Shown: positions 3,218 through 57,816 of the stretch, in pieces
How the letters are laid out: each line of letters begins with the position of its first letter
How positions within the stretch are numbered: the first letter of the stretch is position 1
NCBI GenBank assembly: GCA_035457485.1
Contig: DATIBO010000006.1
Coordinates: 370,659-434,658 of the forward strand
Length of the DNA stretch: 64,000 nucleotides
DNA from: Candidatus Saccharimonadales bacterium
GTDB taxonomy: Bacteria; Patescibacteriota; Saccharimonadia; Saccharimonadales; EFPC-124
Reading direction: 5' to 3'
Made by a program: the position numbers and the translations under genes
The notes under the pieces: generated by a model
The model's input: the letters and a program-made list of their open reading frames with translations, nothing else
Told to the model about the DNA's origin: nothing
Databases searched by the model: none

Positions 3218-3748
3218 ATGACCGCTCAGACGCGAGACTTCGCCGAGATCAGCGACAAGCAGATCTTGGAGGAGGCGATGGAGTCCGGCGAGACGATCTT
3301 CAACGATCTGTTCTGGCGGGACCTTCTCAACAGCGAGACGGTGTGCATCACGGTCGCGCTGGTCGACGCCCTCGGCAACTACACCTGGCTGGGCAGTCAG
3401 GTCTTCGGCGACAAGGTTCAGTGGGACGAGAGCAAGTTCAACAGCTCGCCCGACGACAACTTCTGGGCCTACGCCGGCGGCAAGGCGATCACCTCGGCGG
3501 TGCTTCGCAAGAACACCCGCGAGGCTCGCGAAGCCGGCGACCCGCTCCCCGTGGGTGGCCTCGACTGGAACGGCGGCGTCTTCCGCGCAGTGACGTTCGG
3601 TTCGGGTGACCAGAGCCGGCACGTCGCCGTCGCGGTCGGAACGTGTGGTGTTCAGGGTGACTTCGACGAGGTCATCTCGGCGGCGGTCGTCAACACCTTC
3701 TGCGCCGTGTGGTTGCAGCGCGAAGCTGCCCGCGCCGCGCAGAAGTAA
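3218..3748 (+). CDS. G+C-rich cassette A: hypothetical cytoplasmic protein (176 aa)
   Basis: GC3-rich codons and a GGAGGG SD 4 nt before the ATG. Off-frame ORFs on both strands are typical of high-GC DNA. I recognise no confident family; there is only a faint GlcG/DUF336-like pattern (VAVAVGTCGVQGDFDEVIS). Confidence 0.75.
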   Translation: MTAQTRDFAEISDKQILEEAMESGETIFNDLFWRDLLNSETVCITVALVDALGNYTWLGSQVFGDKVQWDESKFNSSPDDNFWAYAGGKAITSAVLRKNTREAREAGDPLPVGGLDWNGGVFRAVTFGSGDQSRHVAVAVGTCGVQGDFDEVISAAVVNTFCAVWLQREAARAAQK

Positions 3749-3814: not shown

Positions 3815-4348
3815 TTATTTTAATTTTTTAACTAGTTCATCAAGTTTGATAGTAGCGTCGTCAGATGTATTGATCGTGATCAATTTATCTAAACCGATCG
3901 GGATGTGCTGGGCGGAACGTGAGTAATCGTCGATACGGTCAAAATCTCGGTGGCCAGGATGCCGCTCGCCAGTCTTGACTCGCTCAATAAACCGCTGTCT
4001 CGAAAGCTCGTATGGTACCTTGCAATAAATCTCGATAATTTCTACATCTGGGAAGTCTTCGACAATTTTTTTAATCTGTTTACCGGCAAAGTCTGGGTTA
4101 AAAGCGTTTTCAATAATTAAAGAACGTCCGCTTTTTAAAATCCCTCTGGCAAGTTCGATTAAAAAATCAGCCGACAAAGAACCAAGCAATTTTGACCACT
4201 CCACATCATCAATCCCAAGTCTGTCAAATAAAAACTCTTTTATGTCATCCTTTGAAATTAGCATAATCTTTGTTTGTGCAGACAAGTTTCGCGATAACGT
4301 CGTTTTACCAGATCCTGGGGCACCGTTGACAATAATTAGTTTGTTCAT
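3815..4348 (-). CDS. P-loop NTPase / small-molecule kinase-like (AAA_33-type) protein
   Basis: Walker A motif GAPGSGKTT near the N-terminus. Composition is native and low in GC. The gene is sandwiched between cassettes A and B. Confidence 0.8.
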   Translation of the reverse strand: MNKLIIVNGAPGSGKTTLSRNLSAQTKIMLISKDDIKEFLFDRLGIDDVEWSKLLGSLSADFLIELARGILKSGRSLIIENAFNPDFAGKQIKKIVEDFPDVEIIEIYCKVPYELSRQRFIERVKTGERHPGHRDFDRIDDYSRSAQHIPIGLDKLITINTSDDATIKLDELVKKLK

Positions 4349-7333: not shown

Positions 7334-7888
7334 TCAGCTGGAGGCCTTGGTTTTGCGCTTGTGGCTGAAGTAGCCGAAGATCCCTGCGATGGCCAGCCCG
7401 ATCGAGATGATCCAGCAGGCGCTCAGCGCCAGCTTCAGTCGGGTATCGTAGACGTTGTAGTAGATCGTCTGGATGAGGACGCCGATGGCGAGTGTGACGC
7501 AGGCCATCCAGAACTTGGTGGGCCATGTGACGCGCTTGTCGTCGATTGCGGGCCGTCCACTGTTGAACAGCATCATCCCGAACGCCACCATGAGCCATGC
7601 CGCCATCCAGCCGTTCAGACTGTTGGCTTTGGGCAGCATCCTGTCGGTCGCTGCCAGCTGCTGCTCGACCTCGATGAAGTCGATGGCCGCGGAGGCCGTA
7701 CCGCAGATAGGAATAGCGAGCATGAGCGTTACGATGATGTTCGTTGCGGTCGGCGAGACCGGGAGCCAGCTCGCCAGTCTCCAGATGCCGACGGCGACGA
7801 GAATCGCCGCCATCCACTTTCCGGTTGGCGGGTCGTACAAGGCATACGTCACCGGGTCGGTCCCGATACTCGCAATTGCGTTGAACAC
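7334..7888 (-). CDS. G+C-rich cassette C: multi-pass membrane protein (184 aa)
   Basis: GTG start within the GGAGGTAGCTGTG context. It has 4-5 hydrophobic helices and GC3-rich codons. Confidence 0.75.
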   Translation of the reverse strand: MFNAIASIGTDPVTYALYDPPTGKWMAAILVAVGIWRLASWLPVSPTATNIIVTLMLAIPICGTASAAIDFIEVEQQLAATDRMLPKANSLNGWMAAWLMVAFGMMLFNSGRPAIDDKRVTWPTKFWMACVTLAIGVLIQTIYYNVYDTRLKLALSACWIISIGLAIAGIFGYFSHKRKTKASS

Positions 7889-8063: not shown

Positions 8064-8399
8064 ATGAGCTGCATCGCCAACCCCATGTGGGGCGGAGAAG
8101 TCGTGCTCGGCATGCCGAATGGAGCCCTGTGGGCTTTCGCGGTACTGCTGCCGGTCATCGCGGCCGCGCTCGGGCTCGCCTGCCTGATCTTGCACGAGAA
8201 CGGCGACAACGCCGCTATCGTCGGCGTGATCAGCAGCGTCTTCGCGCCCGTCGCGGCCTACTGCACGTTCATGCTCGACACCGAGCTGATCTCGCGCATC
8301 GGCAGCGACCCCACGGCCACCGGGATCGGCATCATCGCCCAGATCGTAGCCATGGGCTTCGGTCTAGTGATGGGCCTGATCGCCACATTCGACAACTGA
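8064..8399 (+). CDS. G+C-rich cassette D: small 3-TM membrane protein (111 aa)
   Basis: The ATG follows a GAGGAGAGG SD. The protein is very Ala/Gly/Ile-rich and hydrophobic, with GC3-rich codons. Confidence 0.75.
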   Translation: MSCIANPMWGGEVVLGMPNGALWAFAVLLPVIAAALGLACLILHENGDNAAIVGVISSVFAPVAAYCTFMLDTELISRIGSDPTATGIGIIAQIVAMGFGLVMGLIATFDN

Positions 8400-8621: not shown

Positions 8622-9245
8622 ATGTCCCTGTTCCGACGCGGCCAGCACTGCTGCTGCCAGCCAGCTTTCGCCACCATCATCGGCTTCGGGAGAATCCCGA
8701 TGACGAACGGTGGCCACAGCCACGACTGCACCTGCACGCACGGTCGCTGCATCGGTCCGGTCCGGATCGTCCACACCGCCGCCAACTGCACCTGCATCGA
8801 CGGCGAGTGCGACAAGACGGACTACGACCGCATCCAGCAGATGATCGACGCCGCCACGGCGCCGCTCACCATCCAGATCACCACGCTCACCAGTCGCCTC
8901 GACGAGGCCGGCCGGCGGATCGAGGACCTGGAGGCGCGGCCCATCGCCGGCATCACCGAGGTCGTGGGCGAGCGTCGCTCGTTCGTTACCCGGTGGACCC
9001 TGGTCGGAGCCATCATCGGCTTCGCTCTGGCGGTCATCGGGGCGCTCAGCGTCCCCGAGGGCATCTACCACCTGCTCGGCAACAAGACCTGGTTCTACAC
9101 CCAGAGCTTCCTGTTCTGGATGGAGATCATCATCGGTACGACGTTCATCGTCGCCGGACTCGGGTTCTTCTTCGGAATGGCCCGCAGTGCCGACGCCGTT
9201 CCGACGTACCGTGAGGTCACCCGCACGGACGGTGGTTCGCTGTGA
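8622..9245 (+). CDS. G+C-rich cassette E1: Cys/His-rich, coiled-coil, C-terminally membrane-anchored protein (207 aa)
   Basis: The N-terminus has CCCQ..HSHDCTCTHGRC..NCTCIDGEC. A heptad-like segment follows, then 2-3 C-terminal TM helices. Confidence 0.75.
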   Translation: MSLFRRGQHCCCQPAFATIIGFGRIPMTNGGHSHDCTCTHGRCIGPVRIVHTAANCTCIDGECDKTDYDRIQQMIDAATAPLTIQITTLTSRLDEAGRRIEDLEARPIAGITEVVGERRSFVTRWTLVGAIIGFALAVIGALSVPEGIYHLLGNKTWFYTQSFLFWMEIIIGTTFIVAGLGFFFGMARSADAVPTYREVTRTDGGSL

Positions 9246-9979
9246 ACCGTCGCCGTGTAGCGCTCGTTGGGTTGCTGGCGATTCCGCTGGCGTGCCTGGC
9301 GTTCGTGCTTTCGAACTCGGTGGTGATGGTCACCGGACCGGCTTCGGTTCCGGTGGCGATCGCGCCGAGTCCCTCTGTCGTCCCGTCCCCGGCCGTAGTG
9401 CCGCCGGACGACTACTGCCTGGTTAAGGCTCCGCCCGAGTATCTGGGCGAGTACACACCAGACAACGACTTCGGCTACCCTGCGGTTACCGATTGGGAGC
9501 GCAAGCACCCCAAGAAGTTCCTGCAGAACCCCGACAGTCTGCCCGACACGCTCACCGACCTGAAGATCCGCTGGTGCGGAGTCGATGGCGAGGGCGTGAG
9601 AGGCGGGGATCCGCTGCTTCAGAACGCACACTTCAGTGTGCCGGACGACAGCGACCCCAACCGCCCCTTCAACGAGGCCAGCTGGCGTGCCACCACGGAC
9701 GCCAACGTGAACCGCGTGAAGTGGGACCAGGCCGAGCTCAAGCTCGCGCCCGCGGGAGACTACTATGTCATGTACATGGTGGAATCCCGCAAGACCGGCA
9801 AGCTGGAAGTGCGAATCAGCCTCCAGTGGAAGCCGGACACCCTGGTGCTTATGCTGCCGATCGCGAGAGCGGACGGCACAGGCACCGAAACGCTGATGTT
9901 GCGACTGGAGTGTGGGTTCCAACCCATGTTCGAGAAGCGCAGCAGCGTCCCCCGGTGGCTGCAGAAGTTCCTGAACTGA
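9242..9979 (+). CDS. G+C-rich cassette E2: secreted protein with an N-terminal signal/TM segment (245 aa)
   Basis: GTG start overlaps the E1 stop (GTGA), suggesting translational coupling. The N-terminus is MNRRRVALVGLLAIPLACLAFVL, followed by a Pro-rich linker. Confidence 0.75.
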   Translation: MNRRRVALVGLLAIPLACLAFVLSNSVVMVTGPASVPVAIAPSPSVVPSPAVVPPDDYCLVKAPPEYLGEYTPDNDFGYPAVTDWERKHPKKFLQNPDSLPDTLTDLKIRWCGVDGEGVRGGDPLLQNAHFSVPDDSDPNRPFNEASWRATTDANVNRVKWDQAELKLAPAGDYYVMYMVESRKTGKLEVRISLQWKPDTLVLMLPIARADGTGTETLMLRLECGFQPMFEKRSSVPRWLQKFLN

Positions 9980-10867: not shown

Positions 10868-12007
10868 ATGCGAATTATTGAGTTTACAAAATTCAAGAGT
10901 TTTTGGTGGGCTGCAGCACTTTTTATGGTGCTTTTGGCAGGCGTATTTGCATTGAATTCTGGTAAAACCCATGCCGAAAACGAGCGTGTTATTACTATTT
11001 ATCATGACGGCGCAGAACAAACGATCGTAACAGATGCTCCAAACGTAGAAGAGGCTCTAAAACGGAGTGGAATTTCACTTGGAACTAGCGATTTTGTTGA
11101 ACCGGCATTAAACACGCAGTTTGAAGCACCTGCTTACAATATAAATATTTACCGTGCTCGGCCTATATTAATAGAAGATGGCGGCCAAAAACATTACGTT
11201 AGTAGCCCATTTTCTAGCCCCGAAAAAATCGCTGAGGCAGCCGGACTTAAATTACACGATGAAGACATAGCCGAGCTTACCCGAAGCAACGATTTAGTTG
11301 GTGATGGCGTTGGTCTAAAATTAACTATCCATCGTGCCACGCATGTTGTTTTAGTACTCTATGGCATGCAAAAAGATGTATATACTCAGTCGGCAACTGT
11401 GGGTGCGTTCTTGCAAGAAAAAGGCATAAAGCTTGGCGCCGAAGATGGAACTAGCTCTAGCCTACAGACCCTAATTACGGCCGACTTTAAAATAGAAGTT
11501 TGGCGTAATGGGGTGCAAACTATAACCGAAGAACAAGAGGTTAAATTTGCTACCGAGACAATCCGCGACACAAGCAAGCCAGTTGGATTTAAAGAAGTTA
11601 AAGAGCCGGGCAAAAATGGTAAAAAACTCGTCACATACGAAGTTGAACTACGTAACGGTGTCGAGCTAAGCCGAAAAGAAATTCAAAGCGTAGTGACCGA
11701 GGAGTCTAAAAAACAGGTAGAGGTTATTGGTGTCCAGCTTGGATTCACTGGCGCTTTCCAGGAAGCCCTTGCAAAACTTCGTTCTTGTGAGGCTGGCGGT
11801 AACTATGATCGTAATAGTGGAAACGGCTACTACGGCGCATATCAGTACGACATCTCTACTTGGGCTAATTGGCAAGGCTACGCACGCCCCGATCTTGCGC
11901 CGGCCGAGGTTCAGGATGCTAAGGCGTACGAGACTTATATGAGACGCGGTTGGCAGCCATGGCCATCGTGCACCTCTAAACTTGGTTTACAAGATATTTA
12001 TCGTTAG
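10868..12007 (+). CDS. RpfB/YabE-like cell-wall protein (DUF348 repeats, G5 domain, Rpf-type transglycosylase-like domain)
   Basis: N-terminal TM segment. The G5-like segment is KKLVTYEVELRNGVELSRKEIQSVV. The C-terminus has CEAGGNYDRNSGNGYYGAYQYDISTW. Confidence 0.85.
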   Translation: MRIIEFTKFKSFWWAAALFMVLLAGVFALNSGKTHAENERVITIYHDGAEQTIVTDAPNVEEALKRSGISLGTSDFVEPALNTQFEAPAYNINIYRARPILIEDGGQKHYVSSPFSSPEKIAEAAGLKLHDEDIAELTRSNDLVGDGVGLKLTIHRATHVVLVLYGMQKDVYTQSATVGAFLQEKGIKLGAEDGTSSSLQTLITADFKIEVWRNGVQTITEEQEVKFATETIRDTSKPVGFKEVKEPGKNGKKLVTYEVELRNGVELSRKEIQSVVTEESKKQVEVIGVQLGFTGAFQEALAKLRSCEAGGNYDRNSGNGYYGAYQYDISTWANWQGYARPDLAPAEVQDAKAYETYMRRGWQPWPSCTSKLGLQDIYR

Positions 12008-12016: not shown

Positions 12017-12442
12017 ATGACTTATAAATACGATGGTTTTAATTACGTTATTCGCTTAAATAAAGATGAGCGTTTGAGTGAAGCTCTTAAGGAGTTTTTG
12101 CAAAAAACCGAGGTTGATGGCGCTTGGATTTTAGGTATTGGTGGTGCTCAAGAGGCGACATTAGGCTTTTACAGTTTAAAAACTAAGCAGTACAACTGGC
12201 GAACATTTAGTGACTTAATGGAAGTCACTAGCTTACAGGGTAATATAGCAGTTGACGAGGATGGCGAACCGGTTTTTCATATGCACGGGACTTTCGCTGG
12301 CGAAGACTTCAATAGCTTTGGTGGCCATGTTAAAGATTTGATTGTGGGCGGGACTCTGGAAATTTTTGTTCATCGAACCGATGACATGCCTCTGAGCCGC
12401 AAGCACGATACTGAGGTTGGCTTGGATTTATTGGACTTGTAA
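12017..12442 (+). CDS. PPC (DUF296) domain protein
   Basis: The pattern MEVTSLQGNIAVDEDGEPVFHMHGTFAGEDFNSFGGHV matches my recollection of the PPC/DUF296 fold. Confidence 0.6.
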   Translation: MTYKYDGFNYVIRLNKDERLSEALKEFLQKTEVDGAWILGIGGAQEATLGFYSLKTKQYNWRTFSDLMEVTSLQGNIAVDEDGEPVFHMHGTFAGEDFNSFGGHVKDLIVGGTLEIFVHRTDDMPLSRKHDTEVGLDLLDL

Positions 12443-13035
12443 TGAATGTAGTTAATCTTGATCAGGCTGCCCAGCTGTTAAAAAGCGGTAAAATTGGAGT
12501 TATCCCAACCGATACTGTCTATGGACTAGTTGCTCTAGCGGCAAACGAACTGGCGGTTGCGCGAATTTACAAGGTAAAAAATCGTGTTAACAAACCCGGC
12601 CCCACAATTGCAGCTAGTGTTGATCAGTTGCGCGACCTAGGTTTGCTTGAGTCTGATCTTATAAAAGCTGCTAAATTTTGGCCCAATCCAATTAGTATTG
12701 TTTTAAAGCCTGGTGCAAACTTGGCTTATTTAAGTCAGGGCTTGCCAGATTTACCGTTTAGGGTAGTCGCCAATACAAAAACTAGCGAATTTTTGCAAAA
12801 AACTGGTGCTCTAGCCACTACAAGTGCCAATGCGCCAGGCGAACCAGCCGCCGAAAATTTGCAACAAGCAGTAGACTATTTTGGTGATGCAGTTGATTTT
12901 TATGTAGATGGCGGTGAAATTAGTAACGCTTTGCCGTCGACAATCATTGGATTTGATGGTGAAAATGTTAAAATTTATCGAGAAGGCGCTGTAACTAAAC
13001 AAAAAATAGAAAGTTTAAAAAATGCCAACTCCTAA
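12442..13035 (+). CDS. tsaC: L-threonylcarbamoyladenylate synthase (YrdC/Sua5 family)
   Basis: Contains GVIPTDTVYGLVA, TSAN and PSTII motifs. The start overlaps the upstream stop (ATGA-type coupling). Confidence 0.85.
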   Translation: MNVVNLDQAAQLLKSGKIGVIPTDTVYGLVALAANELAVARIYKVKNRVNKPGPTIAASVDQLRDLGLLESDLIKAAKFWPNPISIVLKPGANLAYLSQGLPDLPFRVVANTKTSEFLQKTGALATTSANAPGEPAAENLQQAVDYFGDAVDFYVDGGEISNALPSTIIGFDGENVKIYREGAVTKQKIESLKNANS

Positions 13036-13792
13036 AAAATCCCTGGGCCAACACTGGCTTTTCGACAGTAAGAGTCTAGGCGCAATTTGCGACGCAGCTG
13101 AGATTACTCCAGATGACACAATTTTAGAAATTGGCCCGGGTCTGGGGCCGCTTACAATAGAACTTACTCAGCGTGCAAAAAACGTTATAGCCGTGGAATT
13201 TGATGAACAATTAGCTCGCGAGTTACCGTCTCGGGTGCCGGCTGCTAACTTAAAAGTGATTCACGAAGATATTTTAAAGTTCAATTTAAATAATTTGCCT
13301 CAAAACTACAAGGTTGTGGCGAATGTGCCTTATTACATCACTAGCAGTCTAGTTCGATATTTATTAGAATCTAAAAATCCGCCAAAAACTACTGTAATGT
13401 TAATTCAAAAAGAAGTGGCAGAGCGAATCTGTGCTAAACCCGGAGACATGAGTATTTTAGCGATTAGCGCTCAGCTTTATGCTGAAACTGATTTGGGGGT
13501 TTTGGTCACGGCCGATAAATTTGATCCACCGCCAAAAGTGGATTCTCAGGTGGTAATTTTGAATAAACGCGAAAAACCACTGTTTAAAGATCTGGATGTT
13601 AAAAAGTTTTTTAGAATCGTTCGTGCTGGTTTTGGCGAAAAACGAAAAACGCTCCGCAACAGTTTAAGCGGGGGGTTGCAGCTTGATAAAACCAAAGTAG
13701 AAACGTTGTTAGATAAGTCTGGGATTGCGCAAACGACGCGAGCACAGCAACTTAGTCTAGAAGATTGGCATAAACTCTACATTGGGTTGTAG
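13022..13792 (+). CDS. rsmA: 16S rRNA (adenine1518/1519-N6)-dimethyltransferase
   Basis: Contains KKSLGQHWL, EIGPGLGPLT and VANVPYYITS. Confidence 0.95.
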   Translation: MPTPKKSLGQHWLFDSKSLGAICDAAEITPDDTILEIGPGLGPLTIELTQRAKNVIAVEFDEQLARELPSRVPAANLKVIHEDILKFNLNNLPQNYKVVANVPYYITSSLVRYLLESKNPPKTTVMLIQKEVAERICAKPGDMSILAISAQLYAETDLGVLVTADKFDPPPKVDSQVVILNKREKPLFKDLDVKKFFRIVRAGFGEKRKTLRNSLSGGLQLDKTKVETLLDKSGIAQTTRAQQLSLEDWHKLYIGL

Positions 13793-13796
13793 TAGG

Positions 13797-13831
13797 TTCG
13801 CCGCCCAGAGTCGAAAGCCCTGGGCGGCGAA
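13797..13831 (-). terminator. GC-rich hairpin 3' of cassette F, 5 nt from the rsmA stop
   Basis: TTCGCCGCCCAG pairs with CTGGGCGGCGAA (12 bp perfect). Confidence 0.6.
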
Positions 13832-13842
13832 CGGTGGTCGTT

Positions 13843-14106
13843 TTAGCTGCTTACATCTTCTCCCTGTTCATCCTGCCTGGCATCATTGCCAGAGATATCG
13901 GTCTCACCCTCGTCATCGGCAACTCCGGCCATCAGGGCTCGAATATCACCAACTCGGAAACGGTGGTGTCCACCCGGAGTTCTTTTTGAGCTAAGTCTTC
14001 CTGCCTTTACCCATCTGGGCACGGTTTTCGGATCAACCCGGAATAATGCTGCAACCTCCCCTGAGGTGAGTAGCTGGTCGTCTGGATCGATCAGTTCGCG
14101 TGGCAC
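13843..14106 (-). CDS. G+C-rich cassette F: BldC-like MerR/excisionase-family HTH DNA-binding protein (87 aa)
   Basis: LLTSGEVAALFRVDPKTVPRWVKAGRLSSKRTPGGHHRFRVGDIRALMAG closely follows the actinobacterial BldC/Xis-type wHTH pattern as I recall it. It has an acidic C-terminal tail and a GTG start after an AAGGAG SD. Confidence 0.85.
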   Translation of the reverse strand: MPRELIDPDDQLLTSGEVAALFRVDPKTVPRWVKAGRLSSKRTPGGHHRFRVGDIRALMAGVADDEGETDISGNDARQDEQGEDVSS

Positions 14107-14134
14107 ATGGCTCCTTACGTCGTTTGTGAAATAT

Positions 14135-14163
14135 ATAATAAAATAAAATTATGAGTTATGCAA
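14135..14163 (-). promoter_or_regulatory. sigma70-like promoter of cassette F
   Basis: On the minus strand: TTGCAT, 17-nt spacer, TATTAT, in an AT-rich spacer. Confidence 0.45.
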
Positions 14164-14287
14164 TATGTTCTTGTTAGGATCATGTTTTTGAAGTAATATT
14201 GGTTCATCATGTTATCGATGCAAATTATGGTTCGGTTTTAGCAGGCGTACAAAACTTGTATCTTATTAATTTTTTTGAGAACCAATT

Positions 14288-15934
14288 ATGATTGCATCTG
14301 TAAAAATAACCGAAAAATCTTTTGGGGCAACCCAACTTTATAAAAACTTAAACTTTAGTATTCAAAAAGGCGAAAAGCTGGCGATTATTGGCCGCAACGG
14401 AGTGGGCAAGTCTACGCTTTTTAATATAATGGACGGCAAAGATGGCGATTTTGTTGGAGATTTAATTTACAAAAAAGGCATAAAAATTGCCACGACTCGC
14501 CAAGAGCATCACGATGTGGATGATTTAACGGCGGTGGCATATATTTTGCAGGAATTGCCAGAATACTCGCGCCTAAAACATATAATCGAAACTTATCCGG
14601 CGCACATGGGCGACAATGAAGCGAAAATCACTAAATTTACTGAGGCGCTTGAACGTTTTGGCGAACTCGGTTTTTATCACGTAGAAGATGAAGTACGCAC
14701 AACCTTGGCGGATTACCAGATTGGCGATAAAGCCGACATGCCACTTAAAACTCTTTCGGGCGGTCAGCGCCGTTTTGTGGAGTTGGTAAAACTTACGCAC
14801 GCACGCGCCGATCTGTTATTGATCGACGAGCCAACCAACCACATGGACTACATTGCAAAAGAGCGTTTTATAAAATGGTTTAAAAACGCGCCTCAAGCCG
14901 TGGTTGTAATTTCGCACGATCGCGATATTTTGCAAACTGTGGATCAGATCATCGAGTTAACAGACGGCCTATCGTTAAAATTTGTAGGTAACTATGACGC
15001 TTATTTGCGTCAAAATGCGACCACAACGGTTAGCCAGCTTAACGATTACGAAACCGCTCTTAGAACAATCGAGAATTTAAACAAGCAAATTCAATCGGTT
15101 CGTGCCAAAAAAGCTAGCACAAGTAAAACGCCAAACCCATTCATACCGTTAGAGCGACGTTTGGTTAAGGAACGTGACGAACTAAAAGTTAATTTGCAAA
15201 AGCCTAATTTTTGGGTTGATCAAGAATCGCTTGCAGGCATGCAGGATAAAGTTAGCGAGAGGTACCATAAATATAAAGCTAAAAATATTTCGCTTAACAC
15301 AAAATCAATTTTGGCGAGCAAAGCAAATTATTTGGTCAGCGCTCTTGATCTTTCGCTGGGTTACAGCGAACCGCTTTTTACGGATGTAAACTTTACGATT
15401 TCGCCTGGTGATCGATTAGAGATTAGAGGACGCAATGGTGCCGGTAAATCCACGATTATTAATGCAATTATGGAGTTTGCGGCTGGCAATATCCCTGAAA
15501 CTCTTAAAGCCGGTGAAATAAAAGTTGATAAAAAATGTAAGATCGGCCGCTATGAACAAGAAATTAGCGGGAAGTTGCTTGATTTAAATTTGGTTCAGGC
15601 GATCGAACAGATTTATCGCGACTTTGGATTGAGTATAACTGATCAAGAGATCATGCGACTAATGAGTAACTATTTGTTCGATCCGCAGCTCGATAAAGAA
15701 AAAGAAGTTTCTAAACTCTCGGGCGGTCAAAAAGCGCGGCTGCAGCTGATTAGGTTGTTTGCAAATAACCCAGATTTGCTAATTTTGGACGAGCCGACCA
15801 ACCATTTAGATTTACCGAGTATCGAGGAATTAGAAAACGCCCTGTTAAAATTCGGTGGCGCGATCTTGTATGTCTCGCACGATAGTTATTTTACAAAAAA
15901 ATTGGCTGGGCAAGTTGTGAAAATCGGCAGGTAA
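14288..15934 (+). CDS. ABC-F family ATPase (two ABC domains, no TM domain)
   Basis: Walker A motifs GRNGVGKST and GRNGAGKST. ABC signature motifs LSGGQRR and LSGGQKAR. Confidence 0.9.
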   Translation: MIASVKITEKSFGATQLYKNLNFSIQKGEKLAIIGRNGVGKSTLFNIMDGKDGDFVGDLIYKKGIKIATTRQEHHDVDDLTAVAYILQELPEYSRLKHIIETYPAHMGDNEAKITKFTEALERFGELGFYHVEDEVRTTLADYQIGDKADMPLKTLSGGQRRFVELVKLTHARADLLLIDEPTNHMDYIAKERFIKWFKNAPQAVVVISHDRDILQTVDQIIELTDGLSLKFVGNYDAYLRQNATTTVSQLNDYETALRTIENLNKQIQSVRAKKASTSKTPNPFIPLERRLVKERDELKVNLQKPNFWVDQESLAGMQDKVSERYHKYKAKNISLNTKSILASKANYLVSALDLSLGYSEPLFTDVNFTISPGDRLEIRGRNGAGKSTIINAIMEFAAGNIPETLKAGEIKVDKKCKIGRYEQEISGKLLDLNLVQAIEQIYRDFGLSITDQEIMRLMSNYLFDPQLDKEKEVSKLSGGQKARLQLIRLFANNPDLLILDEPTNHLDLPSIEELENALLKFGGAILYVSHDSYFTKKLAGQVVKIGR

Positions 15935-16091: not shown

Positions 16092-17567
16092 GTGAATAAA
16101 TTCTATATTACAACCGCAATTCCATATGTTAACGCCGCGCCACACATTGGGCATGGACTTGATTTTACTTTGGCGGATGTTCTAGCCAGATTCCATCGTC
16201 AGCTTGGTGCAGACGTGTTTTTTGAAGTAGGTGTGGATGAACATGGCACGAAAATTGCTCAAAAAGCGCATGAATTCGGCAAAACCCCACAGCAGTATGT
16301 GGACGAAATCGTTCCGCTTTGGCAGGATTTTTATAAAAAATTAAACATAACACCGACCGGGTTTATTCGTACAACCAGCCCCGAACACGAGAAAGCTTCT
16401 CAGTTAATTTGGACGCAACTGGCTAAGTATATTTATAGAGGTAAGTACGAAGGCTGGTACTGCGTTGGCTGTGAAAGTTTTGTAACAGATCAGCAAGCGG
16501 CCGAGAACAACGGTGTTTGCCCAGATCACCAAAAGCCATACGAGCGACTAAGCGAGGAAAACTATTATTTTAAACTCAGTGCATTTGGCGAGCAACTTCG
16601 CCAAGGTATAGTTGCCGGTGAAGTTAAAATTGTACCAAGCTTTAGAAAGCACGAAATTTTAAACTTAATCGAAAAAGGTCTACAAGATATTAGTATTAGT
16701 CGTCCAAAAACGCAGCTAGCCTGGGGAATACCAGTGCCGGGTGATGACACCCAGGTAATGTACGTATGGTTCGAGGCCGTACTGAATTATCTGTCGGTTT
16801 TAGGTTACCCGAATGCTGACAACTTTAAGAAGTTCTGGCCAGCTGATGTTTGGGTGGGCGGAAAGGACATCTTGCGGTTCCATGGTGCGATTTTGCCTGC
16901 AATGCTAATTGGGCTGGATTTACCATTGCCAAAAACCTTGTTGGTACACGGTCACGTTTTAGCAGGTAATACTAAAATGAGCAAAACTTTAGGCAACGTA
17001 GTAAGTCCGATCGAGGTAATCGATACTTACGGGGCTGACGCTTTTAGGTATTTCTTTTTGCGCCATATCCCAACAGTTGACGATGGCGATTTTACGTGGG
17101 AAAAATTTGAAAACGCCTACAATAACGAGCTAGGTAACGAACTTGGTAACTTGGTGCAACGCGTTGCAAGTATGATCAACAGATATCAAAATGGTGTGAT
17201 TGGAGCATTACCGCCGTCCAAGCACGACACCAAGGCATTTTATGATGAGGTGAACGAGTTCAGATTTGATCGAGCGTTAGACGCAATCTGGGTAATGGTT
17301 CGCAATTTGAACATCTACTTAGAGGAAGTTAAGCCTTGGCAACTCGCAAAAAACCCTGAACAGGCGGATCATCTTCAAGAAGTTTTGGCATACTCTGCTG
17401 CTAGTTTGATTCAGATTGCAGATTTGTTACTACCGTTTTTGCCAACGACCGCCGAGGCAATTAAGCATGTGTTCGAAGGCGGGCAGGTTACTCCATATCA
17501 AGGTGTTTTATTTCCTAAGATTTACAAACATACAGTTGATCCGCGAGCTCAACAACCGGCAAAATAA
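16092..17567 (+). CDS. metG: methionine--tRNA ligase
   Basis: HIGH-type motif PHIGH and the KMSKT loop. The Cys cluster is CVGCESF..CPDH. Confidence 0.95.
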   Translation: MNKFYITTAIPYVNAAPHIGHGLDFTLADVLARFHRQLGADVFFEVGVDEHGTKIAQKAHEFGKTPQQYVDEIVPLWQDFYKKLNITPTGFIRTTSPEHEKASQLIWTQLAKYIYRGKYEGWYCVGCESFVTDQQAAENNGVCPDHQKPYERLSEENYYFKLSAFGEQLRQGIVAGEVKIVPSFRKHEILNLIEKGLQDISISRPKTQLAWGIPVPGDDTQVMYVWFEAVLNYLSVLGYPNADNFKKFWPADVWVGGKDILRFHGAILPAMLIGLDLPLPKTLLVHGHVLAGNTKMSKTLGNVVSPIEVIDTYGADAFRYFFLRHIPTVDDGDFTWEKFENAYNNELGNELGNLVQRVASMINRYQNGVIGALPPSKHDTKAFYDEVNEFRFDRALDAIWVMVRNLNIYLEEVKPWQLAKNPEQADHLQEVLAYSAASLIQIADLLLPFLPTTAEAIKHVFEGGQVTPYQGVLFPKIYKHTVDPRAQQPAK

Positions 17568-18346
17568 TGCAATTTGTCGATACGCATTGTCATATCCACG
17601 AACCAGGTTATAAGCTGGATACTTCTGAAGTTGAAAAAAACGCTGCAAAAGACGGGGTGACGCGGTTTATTTGTGTCGGAACTGATGTGATAACGAGTAG
17701 GCAGGCGGTCGAATTCGTAAAAAACCGGCCTAACGCCTGGGCGAGCGTGGGCTTGCATCCGCATGATGCGAAGAGTGAGGATTCGATTTCGGATTTAGGC
17801 GAGATTGTTGCGATAGCCAAACATGTTGCGCCGAACAAGATTGTCGCTATAGGCGAATGTGGCCTGGATTACTTTTACGAAAACTCTCCAAAAGCTGATC
17901 AAATAAGAATCCTGCGCCAACAGATTGAGCTAGCTCAAAAATACAATCTACCCATAATATTCCATGTTCGTGAAGCTTTTGACGATTTTTGGCCAATTTT
18001 TGACAGCTATAAGGGCCTGCGTGGAGTTCTGCACAGTTTTACCGATAATCAAGCGAACTTAGATAAGGCAATCGAGCGAGGCTTGTTTATTGGCGTGAAC
18101 GGAATCGCAACGTTTGCAAAAGACCCAAACCAACTGCAGGTTTATAAAAATATTCCGTTGGGTAAAATGCTGCTCGAAACAGATGCGCCGTTCTTGACTC
18201 CTAACCCATTTCGTGGTACAGTGAACGAGCCCGCGAAAGTTAAGGTTGTGGCAGAATTTTTAGCGAAACTTCGCGGCGAATCTATACAACAAATTGCCGA
18301 TTCCACAACCAAAAACGCACAAAATCTTTTTAGTCTAACAAAATAA
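17567..18346 (+). CDS. tatD: TatD family metal-dependent hydrolase
   Basis: Contains DTHCHI, GECGLDY, HSF and ETDAPFL. Confidence 0.9.
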   Translation: MQFVDTHCHIHEPGYKLDTSEVEKNAAKDGVTRFICVGTDVITSRQAVEFVKNRPNAWASVGLHPHDAKSEDSISDLGEIVAIAKHVAPNKIVAIGECGLDYFYENSPKADQIRILRQQIELAQKYNLPIIFHVREAFDDFWPIFDSYKGLRGVLHSFTDNQANLDKAIERGLFIGVNGIATFAKDPNQLQVYKNIPLGKMLLETDAPFLTPNPFRGTVNEPAKVKVVAEFLAKLRGESIQQIADSTTKNAQNLFSLTK

Positions 18347-20322: not shown

Positions 20323-20775
20323 ATGGAAGGTAGAATCCCCGACGGCCCCGAGGCCGTACTCGAGGGTGTGATCGCGGGTCGTAGAGCTGCAGGTCGCAAG
20401 TCCAAGATGACCGGCACGGGATGTCTCATCACTGTCGTCATCGTGGGCTTTCTGGTGGCCTGCTGCTGTGGCGCACCGAACTTCCCACTGTTCTTCAGTG
20501 GGACGGCCGTCGTCACGGTCTGCGACAAGGACCCAAAGCAGGACCAGTACCGGGTCAGTGTCAGTGACGGGGTCACCCGCGAGGTCTACGTGGTAGAGGA
20601 CATGCACCTCCCGATCGTGGCCTGGCGCACTGACGCCGCCGACCTATATTACCGCCTCGACAAGGGCAAGGTGTACGAGATCACGTACCGCGGTATCCGC
20701 TGGACGCCGGGATCGCGGTTCCGCAACATCGAGACCGCAACCCACCTGCCCAACGCAGTCCCCAAGGGCTGCTGA
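20323..20775 (+). CDS. G+C-rich cassette G: putative lipoprotein or membrane-anchored protein (150 aa, or 122 aa from the internal ATG)
   Basis: The hydrophobic segment CLITVVIVGFLVAC ends in a lipobox-like LVAC. Codons are GC3-rich. The start is uncertain (ATG 20323 or ATG 20407). Confidence 0.7.
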   Translation: MEGRIPDGPEAVLEGVIAGRRAAGRKSKMTGTGCLITVVIVGFLVACCCGAPNFPLFFSGTAVVTVCDKDPKQDQYRVSVSDGVTREVYVVEDMHLPIVAWRTDAADLYYRLDKGKVYEITYRGIRWTPGSRFRNIETATHLPNAVPKGC

Positions 20776-43681: not shown

Positions 43682-44119
43682 TCAGGGCTTGATGTTCACG
43701 CAGATCTTGCCGATCTCCGTGCCGTACGACATGAACTGGAAGCACGCGCTGCCGGTCCGGGCCTTGCCGCTGATCGACGACCACCAGTGGCGGTAGCCCC
43801 AGGTGCGACCGTAGCCGCGGTAGGTGATCGCGCTCAGGTAGGCGGTGCCGTTGGTGTCGTAGAACGTCGTGCGCTCGGTCGGGTACTCCACGAAGAGCCC
43901 GTGCCAGCTGCCGCTGGTGCTGTTGACCTGCAGCCCGCTCCCGCTGACCGAGATGCAGTACTGGCCGGTGGGCACGGTGTAGCCCTGGATCCGGATCGAG
44001 CTGGTCAGCGCGCAGCGGGTGACGTCGGCGTGGGCCGGCGCAGCAGCGACGACCGACAGACCGATCATCAGACCGATCGCGGTCATCAGGACGCCGAAGC
44101 GTCGGAACATCGTCCTCAT
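43682..44119 (-). CDS. G+C-rich cassette J: secreted Cys-containing beta-rich protein (~145 aa precursor)
   Basis: Start at the ATG after GAAGGG (MRTMFRRFGVLMTAIGLMIGLSVVAAAPAHA|DV), a classic signal peptide with an AHA cleavage site. The mature part has 4 Cys. Confidence 0.7.
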   Translation of the reverse strand: MRTMFRRFGVLMTAIGLMIGLSVVAAAPAHADVTRCALTSSIRIQGYTVPTGQYCISVSGSGLQVNSTSGSWHGLFVEYPTERTTFYDTNGTAYLSAITYRGYGRTWGYRHWWSSISGKARTGSACFQFMSYGTEIGKICVNIKP

Positions 44120-44189
44120 AGCGGTTAACCCTTCAGACGGCGCAATTTGCGCAGATGGGTGGTGCATGCCGCAGGTAGCGGCTCGAACT

Positions 44190-54827: not shown

Positions 54828-54913
54828 GCGCGAGTGGTGGAATGGTAGACACGCTACCTTGAGGTGGTAGTGGGAGCAATCCTGTGGAGGTTCAAGTCCT
54901 CTCTCGCGCACCA
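54828..54913 (+). tRNA. tRNA-Leu (anticodon GAG), class II with a long variable arm, CCA encoded
   Basis: The acceptor stem is GCGCGAG/CTCGCGC. The anticodon stem-loop is CTACC-TTGAGGT-GGTAG. The T-arm is GGAGG-TTCAAGT-CCTCT. Confidence 0.9.
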
Positions 54914-54933
54914 AACAGTTCTTGTGCAAACCA

Positions 54934-54961
54934 AGCCGGACGAGCGATTCGTCCGGCTTTT
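54934..54961. terminator. bidirectional hairpin between tRNA-Leu and the GC-rich remnant
   Basis: AGCCGGACGA-gcgat-TCGTCCGGCT followed by TTT. Confidence 0.55.
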
Positions 54962-55054
54962 GCGTTTTCGACAGATACGCGAAGACCTTTTCTTGCTGGC
55001 CAGAACCCGGCACAGCAGGATGCGACACCGTCGCAACCTGCGGCTGACCACCGT

Positions 55055-55306
55055 TCATCTCACCTTCCGCCTCACGCTCGGCTCGCTCCTCGGCGATGTC
55101 GCCGCAGCGGCGACGCTCTTCTCGGCGTCGACCATCTCCCGCGTCAGCCGATCCATCTCGGTCTTGAGCATGTCCAGCGGCACAGCGCCGGCGTAGTGGG
55201 CGTTGAGCAGCTTCTCGCGGTCCTCGCTGATCTCCGGAACGGGACATTCGAGCTCCTGCCGACCGGAACCGGCGGAGTCAGTTCGGCAGTAATCAGCGGC
55301 GATGGC
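55055..55306 (-). pseudogene. GC-rich remnant resembling the C-terminal coiled-coil region of a recombinase-family (large serine recombinase-like) protein
   Basis: My minus-strand translation is ...QELECPVPEISEDREKLLNAHYAGAVPLDMLKTEMDRLTREMVDAEKSVAAAA. There is no start codon in frame. The frame then shifts into ...DIAEERAEREAEGE, which runs into the tRNA. The family assignment is from memory only. Confidence 0.4.
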
Positions 55307-55344
55307 TCAACCATCTCCAATCTCAGCCAAGCGCTAATCGTTGG

Positions 55345-55896
55345 CTAATTTGGCGCCGGTGCCACATTGACACCCAGCGAAACCCACTCTTTTGTGCCGA
55401 TGTCTGGATAAGAAGGATCTTGCGCCATGTCTTGATAATCCAGGACGAGTCGCATCATTAAACCATCACGAAAGGCAAAGACTGGACAGATTCCTAGCCG
55501 TCTGGCCGTACAACGCTCAACGTCTTCCGGAGAGTCGCCTGGAGCCATCCGATAGCCAAGCGTATTAAGGGTGTTCAGCAGAAAGGCTGCTCCATCTTTT
55601 GGCTCAAGTGGCACGTACCACTCCTGGTCATAACTAGGGCAAGTTATATCTATACAAAACAGAGGTTGCCCAACATGTACACCCTGGATTACTTCTCGTC
55701 CGGTGTATATCGCCCCTGCAGGTTTTAGAACTTCATCTTGCAGTCGGCCCATTTCATGTTGCACTTCCGAAAACTTACTTTGAATCACTTGCTCAGCCAT
55801 AACAAGGCCAAACCCGAGAAGCCCCAAAGAGAGGAACAAAACGATCAAGGTTCTACGAATATAACGATTAGCGGTTGTTTGCATATGCATTAACAT
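55345..55896 (-). CDS. hypothetical N-terminally anchored protein (183 aa), intermediate GC
   Basis: TM helix LIVLFLSLGLLGFGLVMA. No family recognised. Confidence 0.55.
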   Translation of the reverse strand: MLMHMQTTANRYIRRTLIVLFLSLGLLGFGLVMAEQVIQSKFSEVQHEMGRLQDEVLKPAGAIYTGREVIQGVHVGQPLFCIDITCPSYDQEWYVPLEPKDGAAFLLNTLNTLGYRMAPGDSPEDVERCTARRLGICPVFAFRDGLMMRLVLDYQDMAQDPSYPDIGTKEWVSLGVNVAPAPN

Positions 55897-55905
55897 AATG
55901 CATAT
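55883..55905. promoter_or_regulatory. perfect 10-bp inverted repeat (operator-like) in a divergent intergenic region
   Basis: ATATGCATTA-aca-TAATGCATAT overlaps the start region of 55345..55896. Confidence 0.35.
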
Positions 55906-55956
55906 CGATCATTAGTTCAAGACTAGGAATTCATCACTCAAGGAAGAGGTACGCAA

Positions 55957-56436
55957 GTGAAGACAACGCATCGATTGGCGCCGCGCCTACGTTATTTGAT
56001 TCTGCTATCAGTTTTAGCAGGATTAGTACTACCAAGCTGGATAGGAGTACCGCCAACCAGTGCCGCCGAGGTTCCCGGCTGCATGAACGGAGGCTTCCTG
56101 GTGGTTTTCCTGCGAGGAACCAACGGAACTCTTAACCGTTCAGGCGAGTACGAACGATTTACCTCAGGATTGACTAGTTCATTCGGCGATACTGCTAGGG
56201 TCGTAGAAATCGGCGACCAAGATGGAAATGGGCAGATCGATGTGCCGGGTTATAGCTACCCGGCGATCGGCCTACTTAGCCTGCCGGATTACGTAACCAG
56301 CGTGGCACTGGGCGTTAAGGAATTGACTGAACTCCTCAACTATCGAGCAGCCACCCTGAAATTATATAAATTCAAGTCTCTGCGTCGACCAGCCCACGCG
56401 GTCTGCGGGGCTGATCGACGACAGCGACGTCAGTAA
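55957..56436 (+). pseudogene. 5' fragment of a secreted cutinase/alpha-beta-hydrolase-like gene, truncated at the cassette L junction
   Basis: There is a signal peptide and then PGCMNGGFLVVFLRGTNGT (cutinase-like C..VVFARGT pattern). The sequence is lost before any GxSxG nucleophile. The last ~25 codons read through AT-rich junction DNA into the cassette L hairpin. Confidence 0.45.
56384..56419 (-). terminator. GC-rich hairpin 3' of cassette L
   Basis: GTCGACCAGCCC pairs with GGGCTGATCGAC (one mismatch). Confidence 0.5.
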
Positions 56437-57086
56437 ACGCCGGTTCGCAGTGGGAACTGCTCGGCGAGCATCATGAAGGTGGACGGGTAGTCGGTCATGG
56501 CCTGCGCGGTCAGAACGACCCTGATGTGCGAGGGCTTGTTCGGCCGTCGCACCCACTCGACGCTCACACACAGGCCGGTGGCCATCATGCGCGTCACGGT
56601 GGCGGGGATATATTGCTGGCCGGATTCCCCGAAGTTGAGGAATCCGTGCGTGATCTTGAACGAGTCGCCCAGGCCGGGCAGGAATCTGCCGGTTGGGGTG
56701 ATGTCAATCGTGTCCCTGTCGGGCTCACCCGCGAACTCGTTGTAAGTCGTGTCCTCCGGGTTCGCGGCACGCTGGAAGTAGCTGAACGTGATTCGATCCG
56801 GCGTGCTTACCGATCGGTCCATGTCCAGCAGGCTGAGCGTGGCCTCGATCATGTTGTTCACGTCGATTGTGAACTGAGCGTTGTTGCCGCTTGTCACGAC
56901 CACGGTTCCACGTTCGACGAGCCGACGGACGATCCGCCGCCGTCGGGGTGTTGCCTCTGCATTGTACAGCGTCACGTTGAAGCTGCGGCCTCGTAGTGAG
57001 TGGGTGATCTCGGCAATTGCTCTGGCGTCGTCTTGTCCGTAGCGCAGTTGAACTGTGCCGGGGCGGACGATTGCGCGCTCTCCCAT
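56430..57086 (-). CDS. G+C-rich cassette L: hypothetical protein (218 aa)
   Basis: ATG start 4 nt after a GGAGGG SD (GGAGGGAAAAATG). Codons are GC3-rich. No family recognised. Confidence 0.7.
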   Translation of the reverse strand: MGERAIVRPGTVQLRYGQDDARAIAEITHSLRGRSFNVTLYNAEATPRRRRIVRRLVERGTVVVTSGNNAQFTIDVNNMIEATLSLLDMDRSVSTPDRITFSYFQRAANPEDTTYNEFAGEPDRDTIDITPTGRFLPGLGDSFKITHGFLNFGESGQQYIPATVTRMMATGLCVSVEWVRRPNKPSHIRVVLTAQAMTDYPSTFMMLAEQFPLRTGVY

Positions 57087-57116
57087 TTTTCCCTCCATGG
57101 GCTTGACGTCGAATAT

Positions 57117-57184: not shown

Positions 57185-57217
57185 ATTTAAATCAGCCACT
57201 TTCGTGAAGGATGTGAC

Positions 57218-57697: not shown

Positions 57698-57702
57698 TCT
57701 AA

Positions 57703-57756: not shown

Positions 57757-57816
57757 GTTTTGCTATAAGGGGCTTTTTTTATAGCCAATAAAGTGTTATA
57801 CTACATAAGTTCTTAA

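What the first reader, a model, noticed from the sequence alone, without database searches (positions are those of the whole stretch)
13797..14163. An orphan BldC-like (MerR/excisionase-type) regulator is inserted between rsmA and an ABC-F gene
The 87-aa product matches, nearly residue for residue over the wHTH, what I recall of Streptomyces BldC and related actinobacterial Xis-like proteins (LLT..EVA..FRVDPKTV.RW.KAG.L.S.RT.GGH.R....). It carries an added acidic tail. It has its own promoter and hairpin, and there is no integrase nearby. A developmental or nucleoid-type regulator of the presumed host lineage, expressed by a reduced-genome bacterium, could regulate the other captured GC-rich cassettes. 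More speculatively, it could act on host DNA.
Basis: partly seen in the sequence, partly recalled or inferred. Interest (0 to 1): 0.6.

Follow-up and report, generated by a model that had tools for sequence, protein, structure and literature searches.

The report
BldC-family regulator gene in a Saccharimonadales genome
A small DNA-binding regulator of the BldC type, typical of Actinobacteria and their phages, sits between two housekeeping genes of a soil Saccharimonadales bacterium; it is a real but old acquisition already annotated as BldC, and related genomes carry their own BldC-like genes at the same locus, so it is a modest finding.

Summary
The ORF is real: 13843-14106, minus strand, 87 aa, GTG start with an AAGGAG ribosome-binding site. 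It passes the curated BldC model (NF033787, 83.3 bits against a cutoff of 77). It models onto Streptomyces BldC at 0.8 A over 52 residues and keeps the tested DNA-contact and head-to-tail interface residues. GenBank already names it BldC family (HSE29378.1, Candidatus Saccharimonadales bacterium).

"Inserted" is supported. Two close relatives have rsmA directly followed by ABC-F, 87-99 bp apart. No integrase was found among the 44 other ORFs scanned.

"Captured GC-rich cassette" is not supported. GC3 is 0.47, at the level of the host genes. The 54% GC follows from the amino-acid composition (expected 53% with host codons).

The gene groups with a BldC subtype found in high-GC Actinomycetota and actinophage contigs (up to 73-75% identity). 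More distant Saccharimonadales relatives carry a different BldC subtype, a tandem-fused BldC or multi-wHTH proteins at the same rsmA/metS locus.

Best reading: an old horizontal acquisition, now a resident regulator that probably binds AT-rich direct repeats as head-to-tail multimers. No target sites could be predicted. It is a new member of a known kind and of modest interest.

The parts
13843..14106 (-). bldC-family gene, 87 aa, GTG start (identical to GenBank HSE29378.1)
13930..14076 (-). wHTH core, residues 11-59: strand-helix-helix-wing-helix
   Evidence: NF033787 match over residues 11-59. AF2 pLDDT about 90. Foldseek to 6ama/6amk gives rmsd 0.8 A.
13846..13929 (-). Acidic C-terminal tail, residues 60-87 (10 D/E, 1 R), mostly low-confidence and unstructured in the model beyond residue 65
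   Evidence: Sequence composition; mean pLDDT 55-61 over residues 61-87; similar acidic stretches in Micromonosporaceae BldC proteins.
13796..13832 (.). G+C-rich hairpin between the convergent stops of rsmA and bldC; terminator-like and shared by both genes. There is no U-run on the minus strand; on the plus strand UUUU lies 9 nt after the stem.
14111..14116 (-). Shine-Dalgarno AAGGAG, 4 nt before the GTG start
   Evidence: read
14107..14287 (.). AT-rich (27-33% GC) divergent intergenic region between bldC and ABC-F. It contains one weak sigma-70-like match for bldC (14177..14148).
   Evidence: the match count is not above chance

Best explanation
This is a resident, probably functional BldC-family regulator: a stand-alone MerR-like winged helix-turn-helix with no dimerisation or effector domain.

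It belongs to a BldC subtype I call 'type B' (PGEVAALF ... AGR[IL] ... TPGGH[HR]RF, then an acidic stretch). That subtype is found in Micromonosporaceae and related Actinomycetota and in actinophages.

The window's lineage acquired it horizontally, ultimately from Actinomycetota or one of their phages. It was inserted between rsmA and the ABC-F gene. This happened long enough ago that its codon usage is now indistinguishable from the host's.

It sits at a locus (rsmA ... metS) where related Saccharimonadales carry other small wHTH genes: type-A BldC, tandem-fused BldC or multi-HTH_17 proteins. It may therefore have replaced an ancestral wHTH regulator.

By inference from Streptomyces BldC, it binds AT-rich direct repeats (about 9 bp, AATTNNNN(C)-like) as head-to-tail multimers. 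This would bend DNA and modulate transcription as a small global or nucleoid-type regulator. The acidic tail probably modulates DNA binding or partner contacts.

Shown: family membership, fold, residue conservation, the empty site in relatives and the codon amelioration. Inferred: donor, direction and age of the transfer, DNA-binding mode, targets and the role of the tail.
For: **Family and fold**
- NF033787: 83.3 bits against a cutoff of 77.
- PDB sequence search: 6amk/6ama at E 1e-19.
- AF2 model plus Foldseek: top 7 hits are all BldC chains, rmsd 0.8 A, TM 0.86-0.95 normalised to the target. RacA comes next. Pukovnik Xis reaches only E 0.046.

**Functional residues named in PMC5859096**
- Conserved at a +1 offset: E16, R22, D24, K26, T27, R30, W31, K33, G44, H46, R48.
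- Changed: T29 to P, L43 to P, R47 to H. All three variants also occur in other family members.

**Insertion**
- L169 (RsmA 72-74%, MetRS 76-80%, UvrD 77% identical) is collinear with the window from UvrD to MnmA. It has 87 bp between rsmA and ABC-F.
- The JGI contig of P0179 has 99 bp there.

**Subtype and origin**
- Core identity (52 columns): P0002 73%, P0010 71%, Micromonospora 69%, S. venezuelae BldC 65%.
- The Saccharimonadales copies in L084/L167 reach only 56%, and the L161 domains 42%.
- In 300 NJ bootstraps the sister group was never Saccharimonadales-only. It was type-B-only in 108.
- The top 80 genome hits are all Actinomycetota.
- The nearest metagenomic homologs lie on 66-72% GC contigs with Lsr2, DUF2510 and runs of small ORFs.
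- 17 IMG/VR viral contigs carry homologs of up to 73% identity. One of them sits in a phage replication module.

**Age**
- GC3 is 0.466, against 0.72-0.96 in type-B homologs and about 0.41 in host genes.

**Position**
- In L168 the wHTH gene lies between ABC-F and metS.
- In L084, L167 and L161 it is divergent from metS.
- In the window it lies on the other side of ABC-F.
Against: - The phylogenetic signal rests on about 52 columns, and bootstrap support is weak (108 of 300).
- The genome scan used exact peptide patterns such as ALFRVDPK, which favours type-B sequences.
- Only one of the Saccharimonadales contigs with a BldC gene exceeds 10 kb, and the window's lineage has no close relative (at most 78% identity in housekeeping proteins). 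Loss in L169 and the P0179 contig, rather than gain in the window, cannot be excluded.
- Native codon usage is equally compatible with long vertical residence.
- No BldC-type operator array was found. Tandem AATTN4C-like sites: 1 strict against 0.6 expected; 20 relaxed against 12-17 for three of four composition-matched control motifs.
- Expression and DNA binding are untested.
Confidence: 0.6

Rival explanations
1. Vertical ortholog. The gene descends from the same ancestral bldC as the type-A copies of L083, L084, L167 and L161. It has diverged quickly and moved to the other side of ABC-F. Nothing was newly acquired in this lineage.
For: - BldC-family genes that pass the NF033787 cutoff lie in the same rsmA/metS neighbourhood, on the same relative strand, in L084 (78.1 bits), L167 (81.2) and L161 (145.7, two domains). 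A partial copy lies there in L083.
- Codon usage is native.
- The observed 56% identity between the window and L084 copies is about what two independent 25-30% divergences from a consensus-like ancestor would give.
Against: - All five subtype signature positions are type B: G16, R37, P44, H48, F50.
- The acidic stretch after the wHTH is also type B.
- The window copy never groups with the Saccharimonadales copies (0 of 300 bootstraps).
- The closest genomes, L169 and the P0179 contig, have an empty rsmA/ABC-F junction. L168 keeps its wHTH gene on the metS side of ABC-F.
Confidence: 0.2
2. Remnant excisionase (Xis/RDF), or phage early regulator, of a degraded prophage or integrative element. 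It would have no current host function.
For: - The HTH_17 and 'excise' models give weak hits (TIGR01764 27.0 bits).
- Close homologs occur in actinophage genomes, annotated as excisionase or HTH proteins.
- PMC5859096 notes the structural similarity of BldC and Xis.
Against: - TIGR01764 is below its cutoff (27.0 against 28.8), while HTH_BldC is above its own.
- Foldseek gives BldC at rmsd 0.8 A, against Pukovnik Xis at E 0.046.
- No integrase or phage gene was found among the 44 other ORFs scanned.
- Both flanks are housekeeping genes collinear with relatives.
- The ORF is intact, has a strong ribosome-binding site, and has been fully ameliorated without decaying.
Confidence: 0.07
3. Host-directed effector. 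The epibiont delivers a mimic of the host's BldC into its actinobacterial host to alter the host's developmental programme.
For: Circumstantial only.
- Cultivated Saccharibacteria have host ranges restricted to Actinobacteria (PMC11659515).
- The protein retains the DNA-reading residues of actinobacterial BldC.
Against: - The sequence shows no hydrophobic N-terminal (signal-peptide-like) segment, and no secretion genes adjoin the gene.
- It is embedded among housekeeping genes.
- Relatives have their own divergent BldC-like and multi-wHTH genes, as expected for internal regulators.
Confidence: 0.03

Closest known systems
Streptomyces venezuelae/coelicolor BldC (PDB 6AMA, 6AMK; Schumacher et al. 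2018, PMC5859096)
   Same: - Stand-alone MerR-like wHTH with the same fold (rmsd 0.8 A over 51-52 residues, 63-67% identity).
- The mutationally tested residues E16, R30, G44 and H46 are conserved, as are R22, K26, W31, K33 and R48.
- It passes the NF033787 cutoff.
   Different: - The host is a reduced-genome Saccharimonadales bacterium with no Streptomyces-type development.
- It has a 28-residue, strongly acidic tail, so the whole protein is net acidic.
- Three substitutions: T29P in the recognition helix, and L43P and R47H in the wing.
- It belongs to the type-B rather than the canonical type-A sequence subtype.
Micromonosporaceae/Pseudonocardiales-type BldC-family proteins ('type B'; e.g. 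loci L004, L013, L025; proteins P0002, P0004, P0010)
   Same: - Shared signature: GEVAALF ... AGR[IL] ... TPGGH[HR]RF.
- An acidic stretch directly follows helix 3.
- 69-73% identity over the core.
   Different: - Their genes have GC3 of 0.72-0.96, against 0.47 here.
- Their tails continue into Gly/Pro-rich segments that are absent here.
- The genomic context is unrelated.
Actinophage MerR-like HTH / 'excisionase and transcriptional regulator' proteins (phrog_66; Gordonia, Arthrobacter and Mycobacterium phages; IMG/VR loci L170-L186)
   Same: - Same wHTH family.
- Up to 73% identity in uncultivated viral contigs.
- Often placed in early or replication modules rather than next to integrases.
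   Different: - Cultured-phage homologs are at most 53% identical.
- The window gene has no phage genes around it.
BldC-family genes of related Saccharimonadales (L084/P0053, L167/P0055, L083, tandem-fused L161/P0056)
   Same: - Same family (NF033787 at 78-146 bits).
- Same neighbourhood and relative orientation.
- Native-like codon usage.
   Different: - Type-A signature (TLGGHRRY), some with a wing insertion.
- No acidic tail.
- They lie next to metS without an intervening ABC-F gene.
- Only 42-56% identical to the window protein.

Membership tests
BldC family (NCBIfam NF033787) | Scores above the curated cutoff of the family HMM | tested here: met
   83.3 bits against a cutoff of 77, E 7.8e-24, residues 11-59 covering model positions 1-49
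BldC family (NCBIfam NF033787) | Consists only of a MerR-like wHTH, with no coiled-coil dimerisation helix and no effector domain | tested here: met
   87 aa. The AF2 model shows strand 12-14, helices 15-22 and 28-34, a wing, and helix 52-65. The remainder has low confidence and no secondary structure. No other Pfam domain was found.
BldC family (NCBIfam NF033787) | Fold superposes on the BldC crystal structures better than on other wHTH proteins | tested here: met
   The top 7 Foldseek hits are 6ama/6amk chains (rmsd 0.8 A, target TM 0.86-0.95). RacA has E 1e-3 and Xis E 0.046.
BldC family (NCBIfam NF033787) | Conservation of the DNA-reading residues (K26, R30, H46, R47/R48, W31) and the head-to-tail interface residues (E16, R22, G44) | tested here: met
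   Alignment to S. venezuelae BldC, with residue roles taken from PMC5859096. All are conserved except R47 to H. T29 to P and L43 to P are further changes.
BldC family (NCBIfam NF033787) | Binds DNA direct repeats cooperatively as head-to-tail multimers | not testable with these tools
   This needs EMSA, footprinting or a structure. The in-silico scan for AATTN4C arrays was uninformative.
Excisionase / recombination directionality factor (TIGR01764, phage Xis) | Scores above the curated cutoff of the excisionase domain model | tested here: not met
   27.0 bits against a cutoff of 28.8
Excisionase / recombination directionality factor (TIGR01764, phage Xis) | Encoded next to its cognate integrase within a mobile element | tested here: not met
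   No integrase or recombinase domain in any of the 44 other ORFs scanned. The flanks are collinear housekeeping genes.
Classical MerR transcription activators | wHTH followed by a long antiparallel coiled-coil helix and a C-terminal effector-binding domain | tested here: not met
   The MerR and MerR_1 Pfam matches cover only the HTH (residues 14-58). The protein ends in a low-confidence acidic tail with no secondary structure.

The most novel reading that the evidence does not exclude
The epibiont carries a mimic of its actinobacterial host's developmental regulator BldC and uses it on host DNA, for example delivered during the epibiotic contact, to hold the host in a favourable growth state. 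A weaker variant: soil Saccharimonadales repeatedly recruit host or phage BldC genes into one hot-spot locus (rsmA/metS) and elaborate them into covalent tandem and multi-wHTH proteins. That would be a lineage-specific regulator radiation built on the head-to-tail binding mode.
Probability: 0.04. Interest if true: 0.8.

Novelty: new member of a known kind. Interest (0 to 1): 0.3.

Why it matters
BldC is known as a developmental regulator of filamentous Actinobacteria. Finding bona fide BldC-family genes in reduced-genome Saccharimonadales has two consequences.

- It adds a likely case of gene flow from the host phylum or its phages into epibionts whose cultivated members live on Actinobacteria.
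- It shows that the BldC scaffold works as a general small regulator outside any sporulation programme.

The gene types at this locus vary between related genomes:
- single type-A BldC;
- single type-B BldC;
- tandem-fused BldC;
- multi-wHTH proteins.

This variety gives BldC specialists natural covalent head-to-tail variants to test.

The gene itself is already correctly annotated in GenBank, and nothing about it departs from the family. The practical value is modest.

Tried and rejected
- **Exact-protein contig look-up** found nothing.
- **Foreign DNA composition** was tested by codon position and rejected. The high GC lies in codon positions 1 and 2 only.
- **BldC operator scan** (AATTNNNNC, strict and relaxed, spacing 8-11 bp). 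The strict form gave 1 site against 0.6 expected. The relaxed form gave 20 against 10 in local shuffles, but three of four composition-matched control motifs gave 12-17 (the fourth gave 2). There is no usable signal and no array in the bldC/ABC-F spacer.
- **Upstream-region alignment** of the window, L084, L161 and L167. Only L084 and L167 resemble each other, and no conserved motif includes the window.
- **Flanking repeats or target-site duplications.** Only a 15-nt, 87% inverted repeat with one arm inside rsmA was found; I treat it as chance.
- **Cultured-phage database.** Only hits of 53% identity or less, so there is no identifiable donor phage.
- **Cluster look-up for organism names** of the nearest homologs returned none.
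- **The 2.7-kb high-GC3 island.** tblastn of two of its ORFs against plasmids and phages gave no match.
- **Exhaustive representative search.** I did not run it. Its clustering at 50% identity would collapse this highly conserved family, and it carries no taxonomy.

Full report
**Observation**

The window is a 42-45% GC genome with conserved housekeeping genes. The exact protein of the finding is in GenBank as HSE29378.1, 'BldC family transcriptional regulator [Candidatus Saccharimonadales bacterium]', on an 889,392-bp contig.

The ORF is 13843..14106 on the minus strand and encodes 87 aa from a GTG start. An AAGGAG lies 4 nt upstream of the start.

It is the only minus-strand gene in a plus-strand run: Nudix, an RpfB-like DUF348-G5-transglycosylase gene, PCC, Sua5/YrdC, RsmA, [bldC], ABC-F, MetRS, TatD.

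A perfect 13-bp G+C-rich hairpin (13796-13832) lies between the convergent stops of rsmA and bldC. Its fold gives dG -31.3 kcal/mol and z -6.5.

Upstream of bldC is a 181-bp spacer of 27-33% GC, shared with the divergent ABC-F gene. It holds one weak sigma-70-like match, and the region has no more such matches than chance gives.

**What the protein is**

- It exceeds the curated cutoff of NCBIfam NF033787 HTH_BldC (83.3 against 77 bits). It stays below the cutoff of the excisionase model TIGR01764 (27.0 against 28.8).
- The best solved-structure relatives are the two BldC-DNA complexes 6AMK and 6AMA, at E 1e-19.
- An AlphaFold model built on a 60-sequence alignment has pLDDT of about 90 for residues 11-60. 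Mean pLDDT is 55-61 over residues 61-87, and no secondary structure is modelled after helix 52-65.
- The top seven Foldseek hits are BldC chains at rmsd 0.8 A over 51-52 residues. RacA, CarH and Xis follow far behind.

PMC5859096 shows that E16, R30, G44 and H46 are required for DNA binding. It describes K26, T27, W31, K33 and R47/R48 as DNA contacts and R22 as the contact partner of E16.

Apart from R47, which is His, all of these residues and D24 are conserved at a +1 offset in the window protein. T29 is Pro and L43 is Pro. All three variants occur in other family members.

The tail, residues 60-87, has 10 acidic residues and 1 basic residue.

**Is it foreign DNA?**

The local GC peak is 52-57%. 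It is a consequence of the amino-acid composition.

| Measure | bldC (window) | Comparison |
|---|---|---|
| GC1 / GC2 / GC3 | 0.69 / 0.47 / 0.47 | GC3 of neighbouring genes 0.29-0.43 |
| Overall GC | 0.542 observed | 0.529 expected with host codon usage |
| GC3 of other gene sets | n/a | 0.83-0.90 in the truly deviant ORFs at 7.3-10 kb; 0.72-0.96 in the nearest BldC homologs |

Of the 38 residues identical to the nearest homolog, 24 use different codons. The gene is therefore not a recent capture.

**Relatives and synteny**

I found relatives by a metagenome scan with RsmA, by protein searches and by contig look-ups. By RsmA and MetRS identity, the genomes nearest to the window are L168 and L169. 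L081 to L084 and L167 come next, and L161 and L085 are further out.

| Locus | Identity to window | Gene order at the locus |
|---|---|---|
| L169 | RsmA 72-74%, MetRS 76-80%, UvrD 77% | Collinear from UvrD to MnmA; rsmA and ABC-F 87 bp apart; no wHTH gene |
| JGI contig of P0179 | ABC-F 67% | Same order; 99-bp gap |
| L168 | RsmA 78% | rsmA, a 190-aa gene, ABC-F, then a 241-aa multi-HTH_17 gene divergent from metS |
| L084, L167, L083 | RsmA 63-68%; MetRS 75-78% (L084, L167) | Single BldC gene in each. In L084 and L083 it is convergent with rsmA; in L084 and L167 it is divergent from metS, with no ABC-F in between. NF033787 78.1 bits (L084) and 81.2 bits (L167); the L083 copy is cut by the contig end. 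|
| L161 | MetRS 67-69% | 131-aa tandem double BldC (145.7 bits) at the metS-divergent position |
| L081, L082 | RsmA 67-73% | Large multi-HTH_17 proteins in that place |

Sources. A BldC HMM found no such ORF in the loci of more distant genomes (RsmA 57% or less).

The rsmA/metS interval is thus a variable slot for small wHTH genes in this clade. The window's arrangement, with bldC on the rsmA side of ABC-F, is unique among the sampled genomes.

**Origin**

The window protein carries the signature of a subtype I call type B: GEVAALF ... AGR[IL] ... TPGGH[HR]RF, followed by an acidic stretch. Micromonosporaceae, Pseudonocardiales and many high-GC metagenomic contigs share it. The other Saccharimonadales copies carry the canonical type-A signature (TLGGHRRY).

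Core identities over 52 columns:

| Compared with | Identity |
|---|---|
| P0002 | 73% |
| P0010 | 71% |
| Micromonospora | 69% |
| S. venezuelae BldC | 65% |
| L084 / L167 | 56% |
| L161 domains | 42% |

In 300 NJ bootstraps the window protein never had a Saccharimonadales-only sister group. It had a type-B-only sister group in 108.

- All 80 best genome hits are Actinomycetota. The scan's exact-peptide patterns favour type B, so this is weak evidence.
- The nearest metagenomic homologs lie on 66-72% GC contigs with Lsr2, DUF2510 and phage-like runs of small ORFs.
- 17 IMG/VR viral contigs carry homologs of up to 73% identity. One of them lies in a helicase-exonuclease-Sak4-SSB module.
- Cultured actinophages reach only 53% identity.

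Together with the empty site in L169 and the P0179 contig, this favours an old, separate acquisition of a type-B gene. The source would ultimately be Actinomycetota or their phages, possibly replacing an ancestral metS-adjacent wHTH gene. Vertical descent with fast divergence remains possible; I give it about 0.2.

**Mechanism**

This part is inferred. Because the specificity and interface residues are conserved, the protein most likely binds AT-rich direct repeats as cooperative head-to-tail multimers and bends DNA, as Streptomyces BldC does (PMC5859096).

In a 44% GC genome such sites are common. A scan for tandem AATTN4C-like sites showed no enrichment over composition-matched control motifs and no array in its own upstream region. 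No regulon can be proposed.

The acidic tail is a subtype-B trait, exaggerated here. By analogy with other acidic tails on DNA-binding proteins, it may damp DNA binding or contact a partner. That is untested.

- 'No integrase nearby' holds. None of the 44 other ORFs scanned has an integrase domain. Both flanks are collinear housekeeping genes.
- Regulation of the 'GC-rich cassettes' has no support. The cassettes are real: GC3 is 0.70-0.90 in about ten ORFs. They occupy the same UvrD-Nudix gap in relatives, including L169, which has no bldC.
- Action on host DNA is pure speculation. The sequence shows no hydrophobic N-terminal segment.

**Novelty**

No paper in the searchable library mentions BldC together with Saccharibacteria. 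The gene is nevertheless already correctly named by the NCBI pipeline. PMC5859096 already states that BldC-like proteins occur widely across bacteria.

It is a new member of a known kind. The locus-level turnover and the fused variants add modest interest.

Noticed in passing
window 3218-3748(+), 7334-7888(-), 8064-8399(+), 8622-9245(+), 9242-9979(+), 20323-20775(+), 43682-44167(-), 56430-57098(-), 57218-57697(+), 58009-58455(-): About ten small ORFs have GC3 of 0.70-0.90, against about 0.41 for housekeeping genes. Several are predicted membrane proteins. None has a Pfam match above its curated cutoff. Two that were tested have no plasmid or phage homolog. The UvrD-Nudix gap also holds high-GC3 ORFs in relatives L169, L084, L082 and L081. 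Window 9242-9979 has 26%-identical homologs at the same position in L084 and L082. The deviant codon usage is therefore a persistent, positional feature of the clade rather than a one-off capture.
   Followed up: partly
L161 8001-8396 (P0056), L166 248-640 (P0054), P0086: These are single polypeptides made of two BldC wHTH domains in tandem (118-131 aa; NF033787 146 and 189 bits for P0056 and P0054). They are natural covalent versions of the head-to-tail BldC dimer. The L161 copy sits at the metS-divergent position of a Saccharimonadales contig collinear with the window.
   Followed up: partly
L081 5518-10460, L082 3990-5812, L168 3039-3764: In place of bldC, the closest RsmA relatives carry proteins of 241-494 aa. 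They contain several HTH_17/'excise'-type wHTH modules. L081 has four paralogs in a row and L082 has two. This is a lineage-specific expansion of multi-wHTH proteins of unknown function.
   Followed up: partly
window 14288-15934 and relatives L084, L161, L167, L168, L169: The ABC-F gene is present between rsmA and metS only in the window, L168, L169 and the P0179 contig. In L084, L167 and L161 metS directly follows the wHTH gene. PCC and Sua5 (12017-13035) are also absent from this position in L169 and L084. The 'housekeeping' block is rearranged repeatedly within the clade.
   Followed up: partly
window 54828-58489: tRNA-Leu (54828) and tRNA-Val (57817) bracket a 53-58% GC stretch that extends beyond tRNA-Val to 58.5 kb. 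It holds six ORFs with no Pfam hit and looks like a tRNA-associated island. No integrase was found in it.
   Followed up: partly
window 10868-12007, 13022-13792, 16092-18346: An RpfB-like gene (DUF348-G5-transglycosylase) lies close to rsmA, metS and tatD. From my own knowledge, not tested here, this neighbourhood recalls the metS-tatD-rpfB-ksgA cluster of Actinobacteria and the yabD-yabE-ksgA cluster of Bacillus.
   Followed up: no
window 3815-4348(-): An AAA_33/zeta-toxin-like kinase ORF (PF13671 58.6 bits, PF06414 41.9 bits) sits next to a high-GC3 ORF (3218-3748).
   Followed up: no
window 13724-13738 and 14118-14132: A 15-nt, 87%-complementary inverted repeat brackets the bldC gene. One arm lies inside the rsmA coding sequence, so it is probably chance.
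   Followed up: no
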